Virus record (IMG/VR): IMGVR_UViG_2698536484_000011
Location: 1 to 5,642 of that record
Origin: a virus
Lineage: Duplodnaviria > Heunggongvirae > Uroviricota > Caudoviricetes
Strand: one strand, 5' to 3'
Length of the DNA: 5,642 bases
The notes under the pieces were generated by a model. The model made no database searches. It saw only the letters and a list, made by a program, of their open reading frames with translations, and was not told the origin of the DNA. The position numbers and the translations under genes are program-made. The first letter of the stretch is position 1, and each line of letters opens with the position of its first letter. Positions 1-5,642 of this stretch are shown piece after piece.

Positions 1-71
1 AATTCACTGTCGGCGAAGGTAAGTTGATGACTCATGATGAACCCTGTTCCATGGCTCCAGATGACAAACAT
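1..71 (-). CDS. Possible 5' end of an unidentified gene running off the left edge (N-terminus MFVIWSHGTGFIMSHQLTFADSE...); partial
   Basis: Minus-strand ATG at 71..69 opens a frame that stays open to position 1, preceded by an in-frame stop at 83..81 and only a weak GAG Shine-Dalgarno. The plus strand is also open from 3 to 104 (stop TAG 105..107), so this could instead be the 3' end of a plus-strand gene. Too short to decide. Confidence 0.2.
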   Translation of the reverse strand, partial: MFVIWSHGTGFIMSHQLTFADSE

Positions 72-119
72 GATCTCATATCAGGGACTTGTTCGCACCT
101 TCCCTAGAGTAGATTACAC

Positions 120-358
120 CGGAAATACCCAACCCGACCAGAATAAAGTAGATCAAGAAGATAATTATAACTTCCCTATTTATACTTAAAAAACCATTAT
201 TAAAAATAATTTTTCTTTCCAAAATCAGACCCCACATTTAATAAGACAACATGATTTATTAATTATCTAAAAATCTCTGCAATGATATTGTATTACATAA
301 ATCTTCAAATAACATTAATCATTCTATCTTGAAACTTGTCTTAAACAAGATTACCTCT
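120..358. other. AT-rich non-coding spacer, possibly a horizontally acquired junction or promoter region
   Basis: Long A/T runs (e.g. ttattaaaaataatttttctttcc, taattatctaaaaatc) contrast with the GC-richer phage genes to the right. No ORF with a start and ribosome-binding site was found. A TATAAT hexamer on the minus strand (179..174) exists but is expected by chance in AT-rich DNA. Composition judged by eye, not computed. Confidence 0.45.
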
Positions 359-525
359 TTACTCTGCTGAGTCAAACAGCCTAGCCCACTCACTTGTATC
401 ACTCATCTTTAACATCGCAGCGTAGTTTCTAACTGGAGCATACCGAATATGACCGCTATTAACATTATGCCGTAACTGCATATTTAGATATTGGATTAGG
501 GGCATCGCGCTGACAGAACTCAAAT

Positions 526-545
526 GCGGGCTCTTTGCCGCCCGC
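526..545 (-). terminator. Candidate intrinsic terminator of the dam-A operon
   Basis: GCGGGC (526..531) and GCCCGC (540..545) form a 6-bp GC stem with an 8-nt loop. On the minus-strand RNA it is followed by AUUUGAGUUCUGU, a moderately U-rich tract. It lies about 60 nt 3' of the A stop codon. Confidence 0.35.
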
Positions 546-553
546 CCCCGCAG

Positions 554-597
554 AATCACGCTATCCGACGCAACCAGCTGCGACGGATAGCGTGATT
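554..597. repeat. Perfect 14-bp inverted repeat (long hairpin) immediately 3' of the gene A stop
   Basis: aatcacgctatccg (554..567) is the exact reverse complement of cggatagcgtgatt (584..597), with a 16-nt spacer whose centre is the palindrome cagctg. It is followed on the plus strand by taattcattcttt. Could be a terminator (possibly bidirectional) or a protein-binding site. Confidence 0.6.
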
Positions 598-601
598 TAA
601 T

Positions 602-3214
602 TCATTCTTTAGGGTAGCGACCTTCCGCACCCGCCAGCATTTTTTGATATTCCCCGACCGGATCAAACCGCAGGTGCGTGGCATCAATGCCGTGGTTATC
701 CCGTAAATGTTCCCATAATTTATTCACCGTCCGTGACTCATTAGGTAATTGACGCGTTATCAACTGGCCGCCAGCACTGGCTTGATAAAATTTCCCGCCA
801 ATCTCCAGACGGCTCCCCATTAACAGCGAAACGGCCTGAATCTCTGAAATCTCAACCAAACACAACGCCGCATCAGCCAGCAGACTGGCAACCGCAGGGG
901 CAAGCGCTGCCCGCCTGGCTTTATCAGCCACCGATCTGGCCTCGGTTTTTTCCACGGCAGAACGCCAGGCAACATCTAATTCGCTCCCTGGTTCATAAGG
1001 TGATCCGCTGTGCCGCCTTTTGAATGGTGCTTCACGTAGTCGCCGTATCAATTTGCGCCGCGTTGGCTGGTCCATATTTTCAAAATCGACGATTTCCTCT
1101 TCTGATTCTTCTGTAATACCCTCCACACCAGGCGAAAAATCGGTGATTTTTTCGTCTTCCGTAGAGTTATTGACAGAACTCCAAGCGTCGCCGGTTGGCG
1201 ACGGCAAAAGGTCAACCCCCAAACCGGGGCCGCTTTTGGCCCCAGTGACGGTTTTGGATTTGGCTCGAATTTTCCACTTAACCAGACGGGTGCAAATACG
1301 GGAGGCATCCCCCAGACGCGGCGACCAGACCCCGAAAACCTTTTCGGGGATCTCACAATAAGCATTCATTTCATCAGCGGGCTGATAGGCCAGACGGACG
1401 ACATAGTTTTCTCGCGGGATCAAAACACCACCCTGGCGGATGATGTAAGTAGCAAAGCATCCGACATCGGCAGCGGCGCAAACCGCATCCATTGCAGGAT
1501 CCACAAGCAATGGCGCACCACGTTTGAAGGTACTGTCAATTTTCTGTCGGGTCGTGATCTGATTACTAAGTTTGCGCAGCTCGCGGTAAACCGATATGGG
1601 CGGCTGTCCGATGGGCTGAAACTGGCGGATACGGTGAAGCGATGCCCAGGCCATTGCATATTTGGCGCTTTCATTCAGCGGCTTGCCGCTTTCGTCGTCC
1701 AGTTCACCGGCCAGCGCGTGGCCGTCGATATTCTTCGAAATGTATTTAGCGATGTATGCCGTTGCTGACCCTTTCCGTGGGTCCATTTTTTTTGACTTGA
1801 AACGAGCGCCGGTATTGCGGCCCAGCTCGTCGCGGTCTTCCGCAATGAAGTAGGTGCGAAGGATCGCAACCGTGGCTTTGACTTGCTCTTGTGGCATAAA
1901 CAGCAACGCGTGCCAGTGTGGTGTCCCATCGTGATGCGGCTCGGCGACACGGAAGCCATAAGGGCGCAAATCTTCGCGTTTCAGTTTGGCGGTTGCCCGG
2001 TTCCACACACGGCATAAATAGCACTGCGCCTGGGCGACGGTGGAATGATTCCATTTGGCGTTATGGTGGCCGGATGCAATATTACTGTGATATTTCGACG
2101 GGCAAGTGATTGTCAGGAAGATGCCAACATCGCCGCGACTTTGGGCAACAAGCTCAACCCCAGCCATTCGGGCCATAAGCTCATGGCGACGAATAGCCGG
2201 GTTTGACGTGGATTTATTAATCATGTCCTCAAGTGAGGAAACGTTGCCGTCTTCGTCTACCAGTTCATGACTTTTGAAAAAATCCCGGTTTTTACGGCGC
2301 TGTTCCTGCCACTCGATCAGGCTGGAAGCGCTAACGTATGCGTGCGCTTTTTTATTTACCGCGCCAACGGCTCGCAGCTGGTTTTCGCGCCAGTCACAAC
2401 GCAGGCGCCAGATTTTGCGCCCCCACCAGTCAGGCGAAGCCATACGCAAAATGGCCGTACATATCCGATCACGTTCCCACGGCGCATACCATGCAGGCGG
2501 CACAATGCGAAGCGCCAGCATTTCGCGGCCCAGATGACAATAAAGCCAGTCCAGTTCTTCGACGTTCATGTCGGAAACATTCTGTCCCAGGGCTTCGCAT
2601 TCCGTCCCCAGCATTTCAGCCATGCGGCTGGCGATCTCATTAGCGGCGCTTAGTGCTTCCCGCTTTGTGAAATCAGCCAGCCGTTGCCAGCGCCCGAACC
2701 AGTACGCGGCCAGTTCGCCGGTGATATCAGGCGAAACACCTTGCCTTGTGCGCACAACATCAAGACGCAGCAATGATTTTTTCACTGTCCCCATAAGAAA
2801 ATCATTGGTGTGTCTGGTTTCACGGTTGACCCGTAACCACTCAATTTTTTTACGCCAGACTTCACGAATGAAGAACGGCTCTGATAATAAACGTGCTTCG
2901 ACACCTTCTGGCGTATTGGCCCAGGCTGCCGCCGTGGCTTTAGCGGCTTCCATTTCTTGCCGGATTATATTTTGATGGGCGGCCAGTGGCAGGCCGCATG
3001 GTTCGTACCTGTCCAGCGCCTGGATGAGCGCATCACGGTCACGAACTTCGGCGGGATTGTAACCGGCACGTTTGAAGATGTGATCGATATGTTTTTTTAC
3101 GGCAGGATGATGCGCCACCGCCCCAGCAAGCGGGGCGATTTTTTTCGGTTCATAGATGTACGGGCCAACAGCTGGACGCGGTGCGTTCCAAGGCCATGCG
3201 AAAGCGTTAGTCAT
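602..3214 (-). CDS. Rolling-circle replication initiator (replication endonuclease), phage P2/186 gene A family, 870 aa
   Basis: The translation contains the HUH motif as PHWHALLF (H433-W-H435, nt 1910..1918) and the paired catalytic tyrosines YIAKYISK (Y487 and Y491, nt 1754..1756 and 1742..1744). This signature is shared by the phiX174 A and P2 A initiators. ATG at 3214..3212, stop TGA at 604..602. Long uninterrupted frame in a GC-typical coding region. Confidence 0.93.
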   Translation of the reverse strand: MTNAFAWPWNAPRPAVGPYIYEPKKIAPLAGAVAHHPAVKKHIDHIFKRAGYNPAEVRDRDALIQALDRYEPCGLPLAAHQNIIRQEMEAAKATAAAWANTPEGVEARLLSEPFFIREVWRKKIEWLRVNRETRHTNDFLMGTVKKSLLRLDVVRTRQGVSPDITGELAAYWFGRWQRLADFTKREALSAANEIASRMAEMLGTECEALGQNVSDMNVEELDWLYCHLGREMLALRIVPPAWYAPWERDRICTAILRMASPDWWGRKIWRLRCDWRENQLRAVGAVNKKAHAYVSASSLIEWQEQRRKNRDFFKSHELVDEDGNVSSLEDMINKSTSNPAIRRHELMARMAGVELVAQSRGDVGIFLTITCPSKYHSNIASGHHNAKWNHSTVAQAQCYLCRVWNRATAKLKREDLRPYGFRVAEPHHDGTPHWHALLFMPQEQVKATVAILRTYFIAEDRDELGRNTGARFKSKKMDPRKGSATAYIAKYISKNIDGHALAGELDDESGKPLNESAKYAMAWASLHRIRQFQPIGQPPISVYRELRKLSNQITTRQKIDSTFKRGAPLLVDPAMDAVCAAADVGCFATYIIRQGGVLIPRENYVVRLAYQPADEMNAYCEIPEKVFGVWSPRLGDASRICTRLVKWKIRAKSKTVTGAKSGPGLGVDLLPSPTGDAWSSVNNSTEDEKITDFSPGVEGITEESEEEIVDFENMDQPTRRKLIRRLREAPFKRRHSGSPYEPGSELDVAWRSAVEKTEARSVADKARRAALAPAVASLLADAALCLVEISEIQAVSLLMGSRLEIGGKFYQASAGGQLITRQLPNESRTVNKLWEHLRDNHGIDATHLRFDPVGEYQKMLAGAEGRYPKE

Positions 3215-4101
3215 TCACATATGCCCGTAGAAGTCGCAACCTTGAGAATACCGATCACCTCACTGGCGGCCCCTCGGGTAATGGCGTTCGCGCTGACAGA
3301 ACGGTTAACGCTAATTTCCTGGAAGTTGAAAGAGCGATAAATCTCGCAGGTGGCTGGGGTGTCGCTATTGGACAGGATCACCGGCGAACCAGTAAGGCGG
3401 TTAATATCCAGCAGAGCGGCAGCTAACTGGCGATGCTCTTTAATCCCAAACGGGGCGGTGTGGTATTGGGTGAAATTAGCGGTTTCGCTTGTTGGCAGGT
3501 ATGGCGGATCGCAATAGATAACCGCGTCACTACCAATCATGATTTTTAACGTGCTCTGGAAATCGCAGCACACGAAAATAGCTTTCGTGTCGTTAGCTTT
3601 TTCAGAGAATAAACGGATTTGTTCTTCCGGGAAGTAAGGCGGGGTTTTGTGACGCCCAAAGGGAACGTTATATCCACCCTGTTGGTTGTAGCGTACTACG
3701 CCGTTATATCCGTGACGGTTCAGGTAAAGAAATTGTGCTGCACGAAGAATCTTGCCCGCGTCCGGCCCATCTTCAAACACACTGCGCAATGACAGTAGGT
3801 CACGGGCGCGGGCGTTGAAATCATCGCGGATCCACTTATAGCCGTCTTTATCGCCGTACACTTTAAACAGTGGGCGAGCAGCGTCGATCACCGCATCAGG
3901 CCAGCGGGTTATCTGGCGATACAGGTTAATTAAATCTGGGTTGATATCACCCAGGATATAACGGCGATATTCAGTATTGAGGAAAACAGAAGCACCGCCG
4001 ACAAACGGTTCCACCAGGCAATCGGCTTTCGGCAGAATCGGCAGCAAATCAGGCATAACGCGGCCTTTACCACCGGGCCATTTAACGAGAGATCGAATCA
4101 T
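3211..4101 (-). CDS. dam: DNA adenine methyltransferase, Dam family (alpha-class N6-adenine MTase, probably GATC-specific), 296 aa
   Basis: N-terminal KWPGGK, AdoMet motif I CLVEPFVGGASVFLN, and catalytic motif IV YCDPPY (D198-Y201, nt 3499..3510). Blocks such as FLYLNRHGYNG..YNVPFGR and DPPY..ANFT..YHT align closely with E. coli Dam as I recall it. Start is preceded by a GGAG Shine-Dalgarno; the stop overlaps the A start (ATGA). Confidence 0.95.
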   Translation of the reverse strand: MIRSLVKWPGGKGRVMPDLLPILPKADCLVEPFVGGASVFLNTEYRRYILGDINPDLINLYRQITRWPDAVIDAARPLFKVYGDKDGYKWIRDDFNARARDLLSLRSVFEDGPDAGKILRAAQFLYLNRHGYNGVVRYNQQGGYNVPFGRHKTPPYFPEEQIRLFSEKANDTKAIFVCCDFQSTLKIMIGSDAVIYCDPPYLPTSETANFTQYHTAPFGIKEHRQLAAALLDINRLTGSPVILSNSDTPATCEIYRSFNFQEISVNRSVSANAITRGAASEVIGILKVATSTGICE

Positions 4102-4171: not shown

Positions 4172-4561
4172 TTAATTTACTGCGTTATCTGGCGCGGGTG
4201 GTTTGTCGCGTATCGCCTGAATTTCGGCGCGTGGTGCGGCGTAGTCCTCAAATTCCCACGGCATTGATGCTGCAAATTCGGAAAGGCGCTTAATGCCCAT
4301 CAAAAGGCACGTTTGCTCCTTTTCGGTTAGATTTTCGTAAGTACAACCCAGCTGTTTGGCGGTCAGCTTCGGCATTCCGGCTATGTATCTGGACGCATCG
4401 TTTGCCAGGATGAAAATCACCTTTTTACAGGCATCATCCAGGCGGTTAAAACGGGTTGCAGTGTCGTTCACGCGTGAGACGTTCAAACTTGCTTGCAGTC
4501 GAGCCCGTTGCTCTAAGAACTGGCGACGGCCTGGCTGTTGTCCTGTCTTATCCATCAACAT
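4172..4561 (-). CDS. Hypothetical early-operon protein, about 129 aa
   Basis: Frame open from 4567 (GTG) to the stop. I prefer ATG at 4561..4559, which sits 5 nt after a GGAGG Shine-Dalgarno (minus-strand ggggaggtggtt-ATG). Same strand and tight spacing with neighbouring genes. I could not recognise a family from the translation. Confidence 0.7.
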   Translation of the reverse strand: MLMDKTGQQPGRRQFLEQRARLQASLNVSRVNDTATRFNRLDDACKKVIFILANDASRYIAGMPKLTAKQLGCTYENLTEKEQTCLLMGIKRLSEFAASMPWEFEDYAAPRAEIQAIRDKPPAPDNAVN

Positions 4562-4576
4562 AACCACCTCCCCGAA

Positions 4577-4798
4577 CTACGCAAAGATGCCCATTAAGCG
4601 GGAAAACCAGCGGCGCTTATTACGCGGGCGCGACATAAACGGTACACGGCAGTTTTTAACAAATTGAACATCTGCCGCTTTAGGCTGGAAGAACCGCCCG
4701 TCCGGGGTTTCAATCCAGCCGCGTTGATGCTGACGGTGGGTGATCTGCTGGCCGTGGGTGAGCAGGCTGGCGAGTGAAGGGCACTGTGTTAAGTCCAT
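4577..4798 (-). CDS. Small basic hypothetical protein, about 73 aa, first gene of the minus-strand operon
   Basis: The ORF track starts at ATG 4870 (97 aa), but the internal ATG at 4798..4796 is preceded by ACGGAG with 6-nt spacing. The upstream extension lacks a Shine-Dalgarno and overlaps the candidate operator and promoter. C-terminus is Arg/Lys-rich (RPRNKRRWFSR). No helix-turn-helix or zinc-finger pattern recognised. Confidence 0.55.
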   Translation of the reverse strand: MDLTQCPSLASLLTHGQQITHRQHQRGWIETPDGRFFQPKAADVQFVKNCRVPFMSRPRNKRRWFSRLMGIFA

Positions 4799-4936
4799 GT
4801 TGATCTCCGTCATATTGAAAAGATGCCGGGATATAACCCCACGCCCGGCACGTGTTTCCTGTGATAACATCGCTATGCCTGTGTAACTTTGAGCAGTGAA
4901 TCAGGCATAACAATCACCAACACAGAAGGAGTTGTA
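4799..4936. promoter_or_regulatory. Divergent intergenic control region with an inverted-repeat candidate operator
   Basis: Lies between the start of the minus-strand operon and the plus-strand gene at 4937. Contains the 7-bp perfect inverted repeat TGCCGGG (4824..4830) and CCCGGCA (4844..4850) with a 13-bp spacer, atataaccccacg. The spacer carries -10-like hexamers on both strands (TATAAC plus, TATATC minus). A TTGAAA -35-like hexamer sits at 4815..4820. Promoter assignments are by eye only. Confidence 0.45.
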
Positions 4937-5416
4937 ATGAAATTCAATGTGTTTTTTAAAAAAGACCACGGATCACACTGGGTACTTTCCGATGGTTCCC
5001 CCCTCTTTGAAAGTCCACTATTTGAAACAAGACCTAAAGCCATTGATGACCTTGAGAACTTTGTAGGCCTTATGGAATCGCCAATTTTTATTAAGGCTGG
5101 TGACGATATTAATTCTGGCGATACAGAAAACTGTCCATCTGTAGTTATTTCTTTAAAACAGCATGAATCGCTATGGGGCTGGGAGTTATTTATCTCAAAA
5201 AATGGACAACTGTCTAAAGTTACCGAAAGTTCAGGTAATGGCTTTGACTCATTAGAATTAGCAAAGCAAAGTGCCCAGTTTTTTATTAATGCCATTATCG
5301 ACGCTCCTATTCTGGATCAAGCCGATGTCGCTATCCCCGGTATGCACTTCTCAAAATCTTTCGAGGAAACGCACCACATTGGTGACATTCACCCATCCAG
5401 TAAATGGTTCAAATAA
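4937..5416 (+). CDS. AT-rich hypothetical protein, 159 aa; likely horizontally acquired accessory (moron) gene
   Basis: ATG at 4937 is 5 nt after a strong Shine-Dalgarno, GAAGGAG (4925..4931). The tracked upstream start at 4889 is TTG with no ribosome-binding site. Composition is visibly more AT-rich than the flanking phage genes. Two internal segments (HWVLSDGSPLFESPLFETRPKAIDDLENF and WGWELFISKNGQLSKVTESSGNGFDSLELAKQSAQFFINAI) loosely fit a tandem YegP/DUF1508-like repeat pattern; this is unverified. Confidence 0.8.
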   Translation: MKFNVFFKKDHGSHWVLSDGSPLFESPLFETRPKAIDDLENFVGLMESPIFIKAGDDINSGDTENCPSVVISLKQHESLWGWELFISKNGQLSKVTESSGNGFDSLELAKQSAQFFINAIIDAPILDQADVAIPGMHFSKSFEETHHIGDIHPSSKWFK

Positions 5417-5445
5417 TCCATCACTGCGGCGTTATCGTTTTTCTT

Positions 5446-5468
5446 GTGCGAGGTGGAACATCTCGCAC
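5446..5468 (+). terminator. Candidate terminator hairpin after the 159-aa gene
   Basis: GTGCGAG (5446..5452) and CTCGCAC (5462..5468) form a 7-bp stem with a 9-nt loop, followed by gguuucuucauc. It lies 30 nt after the TAA stop at 5414..5416. The U-tract is imperfect. Confidence 0.3.
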
Positions 5469-5538
5469 GGTTTCTTCATCAACCATCAACTCATAAATTC
5501 TGATGCTGTTATCACCGTTTGATACGTCATCAAATACC

Positions 5539-5642
5539 GGTGATGCTGCCAACTTACTGATTTAGTGTATGATGGTGTTTTTGAGGTGCTCCAGTGGCTT
5601 CTGTTTCTATCAGCTGTCCCTCCTGTTCAGCTACTGACGGGG
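5539..5642 (+). mobile_element. IS1 left end (terminal inverted repeat plus insA 5' region); the element continues beyond the window
   Basis: From 5539 the sequence GGTGATGCTGCCAACTTACTGATTTAGTGTATGATGGTGTTTTTGAGGTGCTCCAGTGGCTTCTGTTTCTATCAGCTGTCCCTCCTGTTCAGCTACTGACGGGG matches the canonical IS1 terminus as I recall it. The 9 bp flanking the insertion are tcaaatacc (5530..5538). Confidence 0.92.
5594..5642 (+). CDS. insA: IS1 InsA, N-terminal fragment truncated by the window edge
   Basis: GTG at 5594 followed by codons for [15 protein letters not shown], matching the recalled InsA N-terminus [22 protein letters not shown]. Only 16 codons are in the window. Confidence 0.75.
   Translation, partial: [16 protein letters not shown]

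What the first reader, a model, noticed from the sequence alone, without database searches (positions are those of the whole stretch)
1..358. AT-rich junction and edge-truncated ORF downstream of gene A, at the expected position of the P2 accessory locus
In phage P2 the non-essential accessory genes tin and old, which are phage-exclusion or defence genes, lie downstream of gene A. In this window the A operon ends with hairpins at 526..597, followed by a visibly AT-rich stretch (120..358) and an open frame that leaves the window at position 1. The orientation of that frame is ambiguous: minus strand starting at 71, or plus strand ending at 107. This is the compositional signature of a cargo boundary, and most of any cargo would lie left of the window.
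Basis: partly seen in the sequence, partly recalled or inferred. Interest (0 to 1): 0.55.

Follow-up and report, generated by a model that had tools for sequence, protein, structure and literature searches.

The report
IS5-cut cargo gene in P2-like hotspot
The AT-rich stretch is the start of a foreign, uncharacterised membrane-protein gene in the known accessory-gene hotspot of a P2-like prophage, and the "ORF running off the edge" is an IS5 transposase gene that has cut that cargo gene after about 40 codons.

Summary
Positions 104..358 have 26.7% GC, the lowest in the window. Two strong hairpins lie at 526..597, and open frames leave the left edge.

The edge ORF is not phage cargo. Positions 1..103 are an IS5 terminus, 99% identical to annotated IS5 in 1,521 E. 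coli genomes. The minus-strand frame from 71 or 35 is the InsH transposase N-terminus. IS5 sits at a CTAG (104..107).

In 19 complete E. coli genomes without this insertion, the sequence from 104 continues left into a 2.8-kb gene of 31% GC encoding 925 aa. Its start corresponds to window 237 or 222. Next come ogr and the portal gene. This is the gpA–gpQ hotspot.

The window therefore holds only 39–44 codons of the cargo gene plus its upstream region. Homology with the closest phages (Salmonella SW5/SI7) ends at about 522, directly after the gpA terminator. Positions 374..490 are a relic of another phage's gpA tail, a recombination footprint.

The cargo family occurs only in Enterobacterales, mostly between gpA and portal. 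It has four predicted membrane helices and a helical-repeat body, and matches no defence, Pfam or PDB model. A defence role is inferred from position only. The right edge of the window is an IS1 end.

The parts
1..103 (-). Terminal 103 bp of IS5, the end next to the transposase start. The inverted-repeat terminus ...CTTGTTCGCACCTTCC ends at 103.
   Evidence: 99.1% identity over 1..110 to features annotated 'IS5-like element IS5 family transposase' in 1,521 of 5,426 E. coli genomes. Identity with IS5-free relatives begins exactly at 104.
1..71 (-). 5' end of the IS5 transposase gene insH. The long form starts at ATG 71 and the RefSeq form at ATG 35. It runs off the window at position 1.
   Evidence: Translations MFVIWSHGTGFIMSHQLTFADSE and MSHQLTFADSE. 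The annotation under the matches is IS5 transposase.
104..107 (.). CTAG, the IS5 target tetranucleotide next to the IS5 end. Only one copy is visible, so the duplication cannot be checked.
   Evidence: Relatives read ...ATAT-CTAG-AGTAG and the window reads IS5-CTAG-AGTAG. CTAG is the most common IS5 target, consensus Py-T-A-Pu (PMC5493358).
104..237 (-). 5' stub of the hotspot cargo gene: 44 native codons from ATG 237, or 39 from the RefSeq TTG start at 222. It encodes only the N-tail and the first membrane helix of a 925/930-aa protein.
   Evidence: 100% identical to the start of WP_000439988.1 / WP_249940998.1 in L001 and L002. The 930-aa form P0001 starts MWGLILERK.
76..237 (-). Chimeric 53-aa ORF created by the insertion: 44 cargo residues followed by REGANKSLI* read from IS5.
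   Evidence: ORF list compared with the intact protein.
238..358 (-). Upstream region of the cargo gene at about 25% GC. It is the presumed promoter region, with only weak sigma-70-like hexamer pairs (for example TTGAAG-15-TATCAT at 308..282 and TTGTTT-16-TAGAAT at 348..321).
   Evidence: GC values. The standard scan found 0 promoters. The relaxed scan gave only weak candidates. Promoter function is inferred, not shown.
374..490 (-). Relic of the C-terminal tail of a second, foreign gpA. The frame is open over 359..559 but is not annotated as a gene. It is a recombination footprint that arrived with the cargo.
   Evidence: 56% identity over 39 aa to residues 784-822 of the 823-aa gpA of another E. 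coli P2-like prophage that carries a cargo homolog, E=9e-15. A weaker match to the resident gpA tail. A longer relic precedes the Citrobacter chromosomal copy: E=1e-17 over 87 aa against the 93-aa ORF and E=2e-21 over 120 aa by tblastn. No similarity to the 66-aa ORF of phage SW5.
521..523 (.). Left limit of backbone homology with Salmonella phage SW5, which is the true start of the variable module.
   Evidence: 90% DNA identity over window 700..522, then none.
526..597 (-). Two hairpins ending the gpA transcription unit: a long 19-bp-arm hairpin at 554..597 and a GC stem with T-run (terminator-like) at 526..545.
   Evidence: dG -46.5 kcal/mol, z -4.65. Both are conserved in SW5.
602..3214 (-). 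gpA replication endonuclease, 870 aa.
   Evidence: Pfam Phage_GPA 3e-107. 93% amino-acid identity to gpA of Salmonella phages SI7/SW5/SW3.

Best explanation
The window is a contig of a P2-like (Irrigatiovirus-like, Peduoviridae) prophage of E. coli that ends in a repeat on each side: IS5 on the left and IS1 on the right. Reading on the minus strand, the order is as follows. gpA stops at 602. Two hairpins (597..526) end its transcript. At about 522 the conserved backbone stops and an imported low-GC module begins. That module contains first a decayed piece of a donor phage's gpA 3' end (about 490..374), then an AT-rich upstream region (358..238), then the start (237 or 222) of a single large cargo gene. 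In intact prophages the cargo gene encodes a 925/930-aa protein with four N-terminal membrane helices and fills the gpA-to-ogr/portal hotspot. In this strain IS5 inserted at a CTAG in codon 39/44, leaving a 53-aa chimeric peptide with only the first membrane helix, so the gene is a null allele. The 'ORF leaving the window' is the IS5 transposase gene. All of the anatomy above is shown. Three points are inferred. (1) The module was acquired by recombination between P2-like phages, and the gpA-tail relic is its footprint. (2) IS5 landed here because a CTAG embedded in easily melted AT-rich DNA is its preferred target. (3) The intact cargo protein is most likely a single-gene, membrane-embedded phage-exclusion or abortive-infection determinant. 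Its highly conserved membrane core would be the effector and its fast-evolving soluble helical-repeat body the sensor. I put point (3) at roughly 40-45%. The confidence given below refers to the anatomy.
For: IS5 identity and exact break. Intact locus in 19 complete genomes, ordered gpA, 2,778-bp hypothetical gene, ogr, portal, terminase. Composition: 104..358 at 26.7% GC, cargo CDS at 30.7% against 53.6% for ogr/portal/terminase; homologs in other genera have 29-32% GC in flanks of 41-59%. Variable content at the same site: SW5 has a 66-aa ORF plus a DNA methylase there, and homology ends at 522. gpA-tail relic. Small core-gene pseudogenes in P2 defence loci are described as recombination remnants in bioRxiv 10.64898/2026.02.27.708500. 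The family is hotspot cargo: of 9 independent contexts, 6 lie between gpA and portal of P2-like prophages whose gpA is only 34-37% identical to this one (E. coli, Klebsiella, Serratia, two Enterobacter). The other 3 are chromosomal islets, one of which still carries a gpA relic. Full-length ORFs of about 906-959 aa are kept at 25-58% identity despite about 30% GC. TM2 (residues 68-101) is 84% identical to the reference on average, against 26-39% for the other domains. The gpA-gpQ locus is an established anti-phage hotspot (PMC9122126). IS5 target preference for CTAG in AT-rich, destabilised DNA: PMC5493358.
Against: The window does not show the far side of IS5, so a simple insertion cannot be told apart from an IS5-bounded deletion or rearrangement. 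No promoter was found with standard criteria. No functional evidence of any kind exists for the cargo protein. It has no match in PADLOC, Pfam, NCBIfam or PDB sequences. Fold searches gave only generic helical-repeat matches. In the 2026 survey only 15-32% of unknown P2 hotspot proteins were predicted to be antiviral. The membrane topology, and so which side the large domain faces, is not settled by charge counts.
Confidence: 0.88

Rival explanations
1. One reading: the edge-truncated ORF is itself a phage accessory or defence gene, like tin or old, whose body lies left of the window.
For: The position downstream of gpA is correct for the P2 accessory locus.
Against: Positions 1..103 are 99% identical to IS5 in more than 1,500 genomes, on chromosomes and plasmids. 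The frame encodes the InsH N-terminus. The sequence is unrelated to the intact prophages left of 104.
Confidence: 0.02
2. IS5 marks a deletion or rearrangement rather than a simple insertion. The remainder of the cargo gene, and possibly ogr and the packaging genes, is absent from this strain, so the prophage is a decaying remnant.
For: The contig ends in IS5, so nothing beyond it is seen. A second IS (IS1) interrupts the early region 5.4 kb away. Decayed P2-like remnants that carry this cargo family exist, in Serratia L005/L006 and Citrobacter L004. IS5-IS5 recombination is a common cause of deletions (general knowledge; PMC5009759 appeared in the listing but was not read).
Against: The junction uses a canonical CTAG target, as expected for a primary insertion. 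A deletion formed later by recombination would keep this same junction, so this is weak evidence.
Confidence: 0.25
3. The cargo gene is real hotspot cargo but is not a defence gene. It could be a lysogenic-conversion or membrane-remodelling 'moron', a superinfection-exclusion protein acting at DNA entry, or a selfish addiction-type element.
For: It has no similarity to any of 5,027 PADLOC models, even for divergent members. No nuclease, ATPase or other typical defence domain was found by sequence or fold. A minority of unknown P2 hotspot proteins score as antiviral.
Against: The gpA-gpQ hotspot is strongly enriched for anti-phage systems, and most tested unknowns from the sister P4 hotspot protected (6 of 8). 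The pattern of a conserved membrane core with a fast-evolving soluble body resembles sensor-effector defence proteins.
Confidence: 0.45
4. The AT-rich stretch is a non-coding functional element of the phage, such as an origin, cos-proximal site or regulatory region, rather than a gene start.
For: It is AT-rich and intergenic in appearance, and no promoter was detected.
Against: The identical sequence continues into a 925-codon ORF in 19 genomes. That ORF belongs to a conserved protein family. There is no Rfam or tRNA match. The closest phage lacks this sequence entirely.
Confidence: 0.03

Closest known systems
P2 tin/old locus, the gpA-gpQ anti-phage hotspot of P2-like phages (Rousset et al. 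2022, PMC9122126)
   Same: Same genomic position (downstream of gpA, before the portal gene, near cos). The content varies between otherwise similar phages, the composition is foreign and low in GC, and the module is a single gene with its own upstream region.
   Different: The cargo matches no PADLOC model, and its accessions are absent from the supplementary tables held for the two hotspot surveys. An ogr-like gene sits between the cargo and the portal gene. Here the gene is destroyed by IS5.
IS5 insertional inactivation at Py-T-A-Pu targets in AT-rich, easily melted DNA, for example the nfsB N-terminal hotspot (PMC5493358)
   Same: CTAG target, an AT-rich context at about 27% GC, and insertion early in the reading frame that gives a null allele.
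   Different: The target is a prophage hotspot gene. The duplication and the far junction are not visible. No selective condition is known.
Salmonella phages SI7 / SW5 / SW3 (Irrigatiovirus, Peduoviridae)
   Same: The closest sequenced phages: gpA 93%, portal 99% and ogr 91% amino-acid identity. Same gene order, and the same gpA terminator hairpins.
   Different: At the hotspot they carry a 66-aa ORF and a DNA methylase instead of the 925-aa membrane protein. They also have an extra cytosine methyltransferase upstream of gpA.
Core-gene pseudogene remnants in P2/P4 defence loci (bioRxiv 10.64898/2026.02.27.708500)
   Same: A short intergenic fragment similar to a core gene (gpA) lies at the edge of the hotspot. 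Chromosomal islets carry the same cargo next to a decayed P2 core-gene fragment.
   Different: That survey reports that inactivated hotspot genes are rare. This locus is an inactivated allele, and the cause is an IS rather than point decay.
Transmembrane proteins in P2/P4 hotspot systems, for example the TIR + TM system of phage AC1 (PMC9122126)
   Same: Membrane-embedded proteins encoded at the same hotspot and thought to act as effectors.
   Different: No sequence or fold similarity was detected. There is no partner gene: the cargo is a single 925-aa protein combining the membrane domain with a large soluble body.

Membership tests
IS5 (IS5 family, IS5 group) | Terminal sequence and inverted repeat of IS5 | tested here: met
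   1..110 is 99.1% identical to annotated IS5 copies in 1,521 genomes. The terminus ...GTTCGCACCTTCC ends exactly where homology with IS-free relatives begins.
IS5 (IS5 family, IS5 group) | InsH DDE transposase gene reading inward from that end | tested here: met
   N-terminal 23 (or 11) residues MFVIWSHGTGFIMSHQLTFADSE. The rest of the gene is off the window.
IS5 (IS5 family, IS5 group) | 4-bp target duplication of Py-T-A-Pu, usually CTAG | tested here: inconclusive
   CTAG lies next to the visible end, and the intact allele has a single CTAG there. The second copy would lie beyond the far end of IS5, outside the window.
P2-like gpA-gpQ accessory/defence hotspot | Located between the replication gene gpA and the portal gene gpQ | tested here: met
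   The window shows the gpA side. In 19 genomes that are identical from 104 to 3214, the same gene is followed by ogr and portal.
P2-like gpA-gpQ accessory/defence hotspot | Content differs between phages with near-identical flanking core genes | tested here: met
   SW5 (gpA 93%, portal 99%) carries a methylase there instead, and DNA homology stops at window 522.
P2-like gpA-gpQ accessory/defence hotspot | The cargo confers anti-phage protection | not testable with these tools
   This needs cloning and phage challenge. No computational proxy gave a signal.
Catalogued defence systems (PADLOC-DB v2.0.0, 5,027 models) | Sequence match to a defence-system protein model | tested here: not met
   0 families at E<=1 for the cargo and 0 at E<=0.01 for three divergent homologs. 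There are also no Pfam or NCBIfam families.
Intrinsic (rho-independent) terminator at the end of gpA | GC-rich stem-loop followed by a T-run on the sense strand | tested here: met
   GCGGGC-8nt-GCCCGC followed by ATTTGAGTT at 545..526 on the minus strand. It is preceded by a 19-bp-arm hairpin. Combined fold -46.5 kcal/mol, z -4.65. Termination activity itself was not tested.
gpA (Phage_GPA) C-terminal tail relic at 374..490 | Significant similarity to the extreme C-terminus of a gpA protein, lying outside the resident gpA gene | tested here: met
   E=9e-15, 56% over 39 aa, to residues 784-822 of 823 in L007 gpA. E=5e-14 in the tail-only tblastn. It lies 112 nt or more downstream of the resident gpA stop.

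The most novel reading that the evidence does not exclude
The gene cut by IS5 is the founding E. coli member of an undescribed single-gene anti-phage system that is carried almost exclusively in the gpA-portal hotspot of P2-like prophages across at least eight enterobacterial genera. In this reading a nearly invariant four-helix membrane core (motif W..W...LGIHGTIAALSITFMGMF in TM2) acts as the killing or exclusion effector, and a rapidly diverging soluble body of about 750 aa (helical repeat plus alpha/beta domains) acts as the phage sensor. The IS5 knockout would then be a natural loss-of-function allele, possibly selected because the gene is costly.
Probability: 0.4. Interest if true: 0.6.

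Novelty: new member of a known kind. Interest (0 to 1): 0.3.

Why it matters
For the finding itself, the puzzling edge ORF is an ordinary IS5 end, and it also explains why the contig stops there. The window cannot reveal a defence system, because only about 5% of the cargo gene is present.

There are two by-products of modest value. First, a well-folded protein family of about 925 aa (pLDDT 85) anchored in the membrane appears to be dedicated cargo of the P2-like defence hotspot, and it has no match in any defence, domain or structure library. It is a cheap, directly testable candidate for a new anti-phage system: clone WP_000439988.1 and challenge it with phages. Second, the locus preserves a clear footprint of how hotspot cargo moves, namely a fragment of the donor phage's gpA tail carried in behind the resident terminator. 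The same kind of footprint lies next to a chromosomal copy in Citrobacter. The locus is also an example of the rarer route in which a hotspot gene is inactivated before it is replaced.

Tried and rejected
1. Cargo as a relative of tin, old or another known defence gene: no PADLOC hit at E<=1, and none for three divergent homologs.
2. ORF 359..559(-) as a real small gene equivalent to the 66-aa ORF after gpA in phage SW5: no similarity, no Pfam or PHROG match, and not annotated in RefSeq. It is reinterpreted as a gpA-tail relic.
3. Extending the sequence leftward by finding the same IS5 junction elsewhere. It was absent from 5,426 complete E. coli genomes, from the exact-protein index for the 53-aa chimeric ORF, from GTDB species representatives and from metagenome contigs.
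4. Promoter of the cargo gene: the standard sigma-70 scan found none in 1..700. My relaxed scan gave only weak hexamer pairs of the kind expected in AT-rich DNA.
5. Structured RNA or tRNA at the junction: none.
7. Prior description: the cargo accessions are absent from the indexed literature and from the supplementary files held for the two P2-hotspot surveys.
8. gpA relics upstream of the Morganella and Pantoea chromosomal copies: none detected.

Full report
WHAT IS IN THE WINDOW. Most of the 5,642-bp window is the early and replication region of a P2-like prophage, read on the minus strand. It contains a 186-type Fil homolog (4577..4870), a 131-aa protein of unknown function (4172..4567), a D12-class Dam methylase (3211..4101) and an 870-aa gpA replication endonuclease (602..3214; Pfam Phage_GPA, 3e-107). 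The closest sequenced phages are Salmonella phages SI7, SW5 and SW3 (Irrigatiovirus, Peduoviridae), with 93% amino-acid identity in gpA. Only 19 of 5,426 complete E. coli genomes carry this gpA allele, all at 99% identity or more.

CHECK OF THE OBSERVATION. Positions 104..358 have 26.7% GC, the lowest of any 255-nt window (mean 50.1%, sd 6.5%). Downstream of the gpA stop codon there is a 19-nt-arm inverted repeat at 554..597 and a GC stem with T-run at 526..545. Together they fold at -46.5 kcal/mol, z = -4.65 against shuffles. Both candidate edge frames exist: the minus-strand frame from ATG 71 and the plus-strand frame ending at TAG 105..107.

THE EDGE ORF IS IS5. Positions 1..110 are 99.1% identical to sequences annotated 'IS5-like element IS5 family transposase' in 1,521 E. 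coli genomes, with a median of 2 and up to 28 copies per genome, on chromosomes and plasmids. The minus-strand frame reads MFVIWSHGTGFIMSHQLTFADSE from ATG 71, or MSHQLTFADSE from the internal ATG at 35. From my own knowledge, these are the long and short annotated N-termini of InsH. The plus-strand frame is the opposite strand of the same IS end. An alignment with IS-free relatives shows unrelated sequence up to 103 and perfect identity from 104. The IS5 terminus therefore abuts CTAG at 104..107. CTAG is the commonest IS5 target (consensus Py-T-A-Pu), and IS5 favours such sites when they sit in AT-rich, easily destabilised DNA (PMC5493358).

THE RIGHT EDGE AND WHY THE SEQUENCE STOPS. The right end of the window (5539..5642) is an IS1A terminus, again with an exact break against relatives. 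The window therefore looks like a short-read contig that stops at repeats on both sides, which explains why the ORF is 'edge-truncated'. No other source carries this IS5 junction. I checked the complete E. coli genomes, the exact-protein index, the GTDB species representatives and the metagenome contigs. The insertion appears to be strain-specific.

WHAT THE AT-RICH STRETCH IS. In the 19 genomes that share the sequence from 104 rightwards, it continues left into a 2,778-bp minus-strand gene annotated 'hypothetical protein' (WP_000439988.1 / WP_249940998.1). An ogr/Delta-like gene, the portal gene and the terminase gene follow. The RefSeq start (TTG) corresponds to window 222, and an in-frame ATG at 237 gives the 930-aa form found in protein databases. 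The gene has 30.7% GC, against 53.6% for ogr/portal/terminase. The window therefore contains only the first 39-44 codons (N-tail and first membrane helix) and the AT-rich upstream region (238..358). IS5 creates a 53-aa chimeric ORF at 76..237 and a null allele. I could not identify a convincing promoter: there were none with standard criteria and only weak hexamer pairs with relaxed ones.

WHERE SYNTENY BREAKS. DNA identity with phage SW5 is 90% through the gpA 3' end and both hairpins. It stops at window 522, right after the terminator T-run. At the same site SW5 carries an unrelated 66-aa ORF and a DNA methylase before ogr and portal. This locus matches the gpA-gpQ hotspot that holds old and tin in P2 and many anti-phage systems in its relatives (PMC9122126).

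A RECOMBINATION FOOTPRINT. Between the terminator and the AT-rich region, window 374..490 (minus strand, inside an unannotated 66-codon frame at 359..559) encodes 39 residues. They are 56% identical to the last 39 residues of the gpA of a different E. coli P2-like prophage (L007), E = 9e-15. That prophage carries a 58%-identical homolog of the cargo in its own hotspot. The fragment resembles the resident gpA tail only weakly. In Citrobacter portucalensis the cargo homolog lies in a chromosomal islet between clpA and a U32 peptidase gene. It is preceded by a 93-aa ORF that is a longer relic of the same gpA tail (E = 1e-17 against the ORF, 2e-21 by tblastn over 120 aa). I infer that the cargo moves between P2-like phages, and into chromosomes, together with a piece of the donor's gpA 3' end. 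This fits the 'remnants of an intense process of recombination' reported for P2 and P4 defence loci (bioRxiv 10.64898/2026.02.27.708500).

THE CARGO FAMILY: DISTRIBUTION. The protein has 59 relatives at the 90% cluster level and only 45 representatives at 50% identity among 1.84 billion proteins. Every member that carries an organism name is from Enterobacterales: Escherichia, Citrobacter, Morganella, Cedecea, Enterobacter, Klebsiella, Rahnella, Cronobacter, Serratia, Edwardsiella and Pantoea. Only 3 of 185,579 species-representative genomes encode it, and no deposited phage genome does. Of nine independent genomic contexts, six lie between gpA and portal of P2-like prophages whose gpA is only 34-37% identical to this one. 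Three are chromosomal islets. All homologs have 29-32% GC, whatever the host.

MECHANISM: SHOWN AND INFERRED. Shown: the anatomy, the IS5 disruption, the hotspot position and the foreign composition. Inferred: (a) acquisition by recombination between P2-like phages; (b) IS5 targeting of a CTAG in AT-rich DNA; (c) the intact protein acting as a membrane-embedded phage-exclusion or abortive-infection determinant, with a conserved membrane effector and a variable sensor body. I rate (c) at about 40-45%. The hotspot is enriched for defence, and 6 of 8 unknown P4-hotspot loci protected when tested. However, only 15-32% of unknown P2-hotspot proteins score as antiviral, and nothing in the sequence or fold points to a mechanism. 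I cannot tell whether the rest of the gene survives beyond IS5 in this strain, and I put an IS5-bounded deletion at about 25%.

VERDICT. The finding is real but mostly ordinary: an IS5 end plus the stub of a hotspot cargo gene. The locus is correct and the composition is foreign, but the ORF was misidentified, the boundary was misplaced, and no defence identity was shown. The locus is a new, uncharacterised member of a known kind of locus, and in this strain it is inactivated. Interest: 0.3.

Noticed in passing
window 5539..5642 (and 5421..5552, minus strand): The right edge of the window is an IS1A terminus (GGTGATGCTGCCAACTTACTGAT...). It is inserted in a 115-aa early-region gene of unknown function, the homolog of L001 17317..17664, which lies between the 175-aa ORF and cox. 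With IS5 at the left edge, the window is a contig bounded by IS elements on both sides.
   Followed up: yes
L002 17317..18867 compared with window 5417..5642: The same 115-aa early gene that IS1 interrupts here is truncated by an IS3-family element in strain RM13322. That makes two independent IS hits in one 348-bp gene of this prophage lineage. It could be an insertion hotspot or selection against the gene. The gene has no Pfam or PADLOC match.
   Followed up: partly
window 4889..5416 (+): A 175-aa ORF with low GC (39.8%) lies on the opposite strand inside the early operon, between Fil and the IS1-hit gene. It matches phrog_9021 (unknown function) but no Pfam, NCBIfam or PADLOC model. It looks like a second imported 'moron'.
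   Followed up: partly
window 374..490 (-); L004 7580..7861: gpA C-terminal relics lie next to the cargo gene in this prophage and in a Citrobacter chromosomal islet. The cargo appears to carry a piece of the donor's gpA 3' end when it moves.
   Followed up: yes
[not shown]
   Followed up: no
P0001 residues 68-101 (cargo protein TM2): A nearly invariant membrane motif, W68..W73..L77..H80-G-T-I-A-A-L-S-I-T-F-M91..F94, is conserved across a family that otherwise diverges to 25% identity. It is a candidate functional core for mutagenesis.
   Followed up: partly
L007 6365..6916: In one E. coli P2-like prophage a 183-aa ORF with no Pfam or PADLOC match lies between gpA and the cargo homolog. It is absent from the other contexts. 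It could be an occasional partner gene or separate cargo.
   Followed up: partly
window 3211..3214: The Dam methylase stop codon and the gpA start codon overlap in the 4-base region 3211..3214, which suggests translational coupling. At 870 aa, gpA is unusually long; P2 gpA is about 761 aa (from memory).
   Followed up: no
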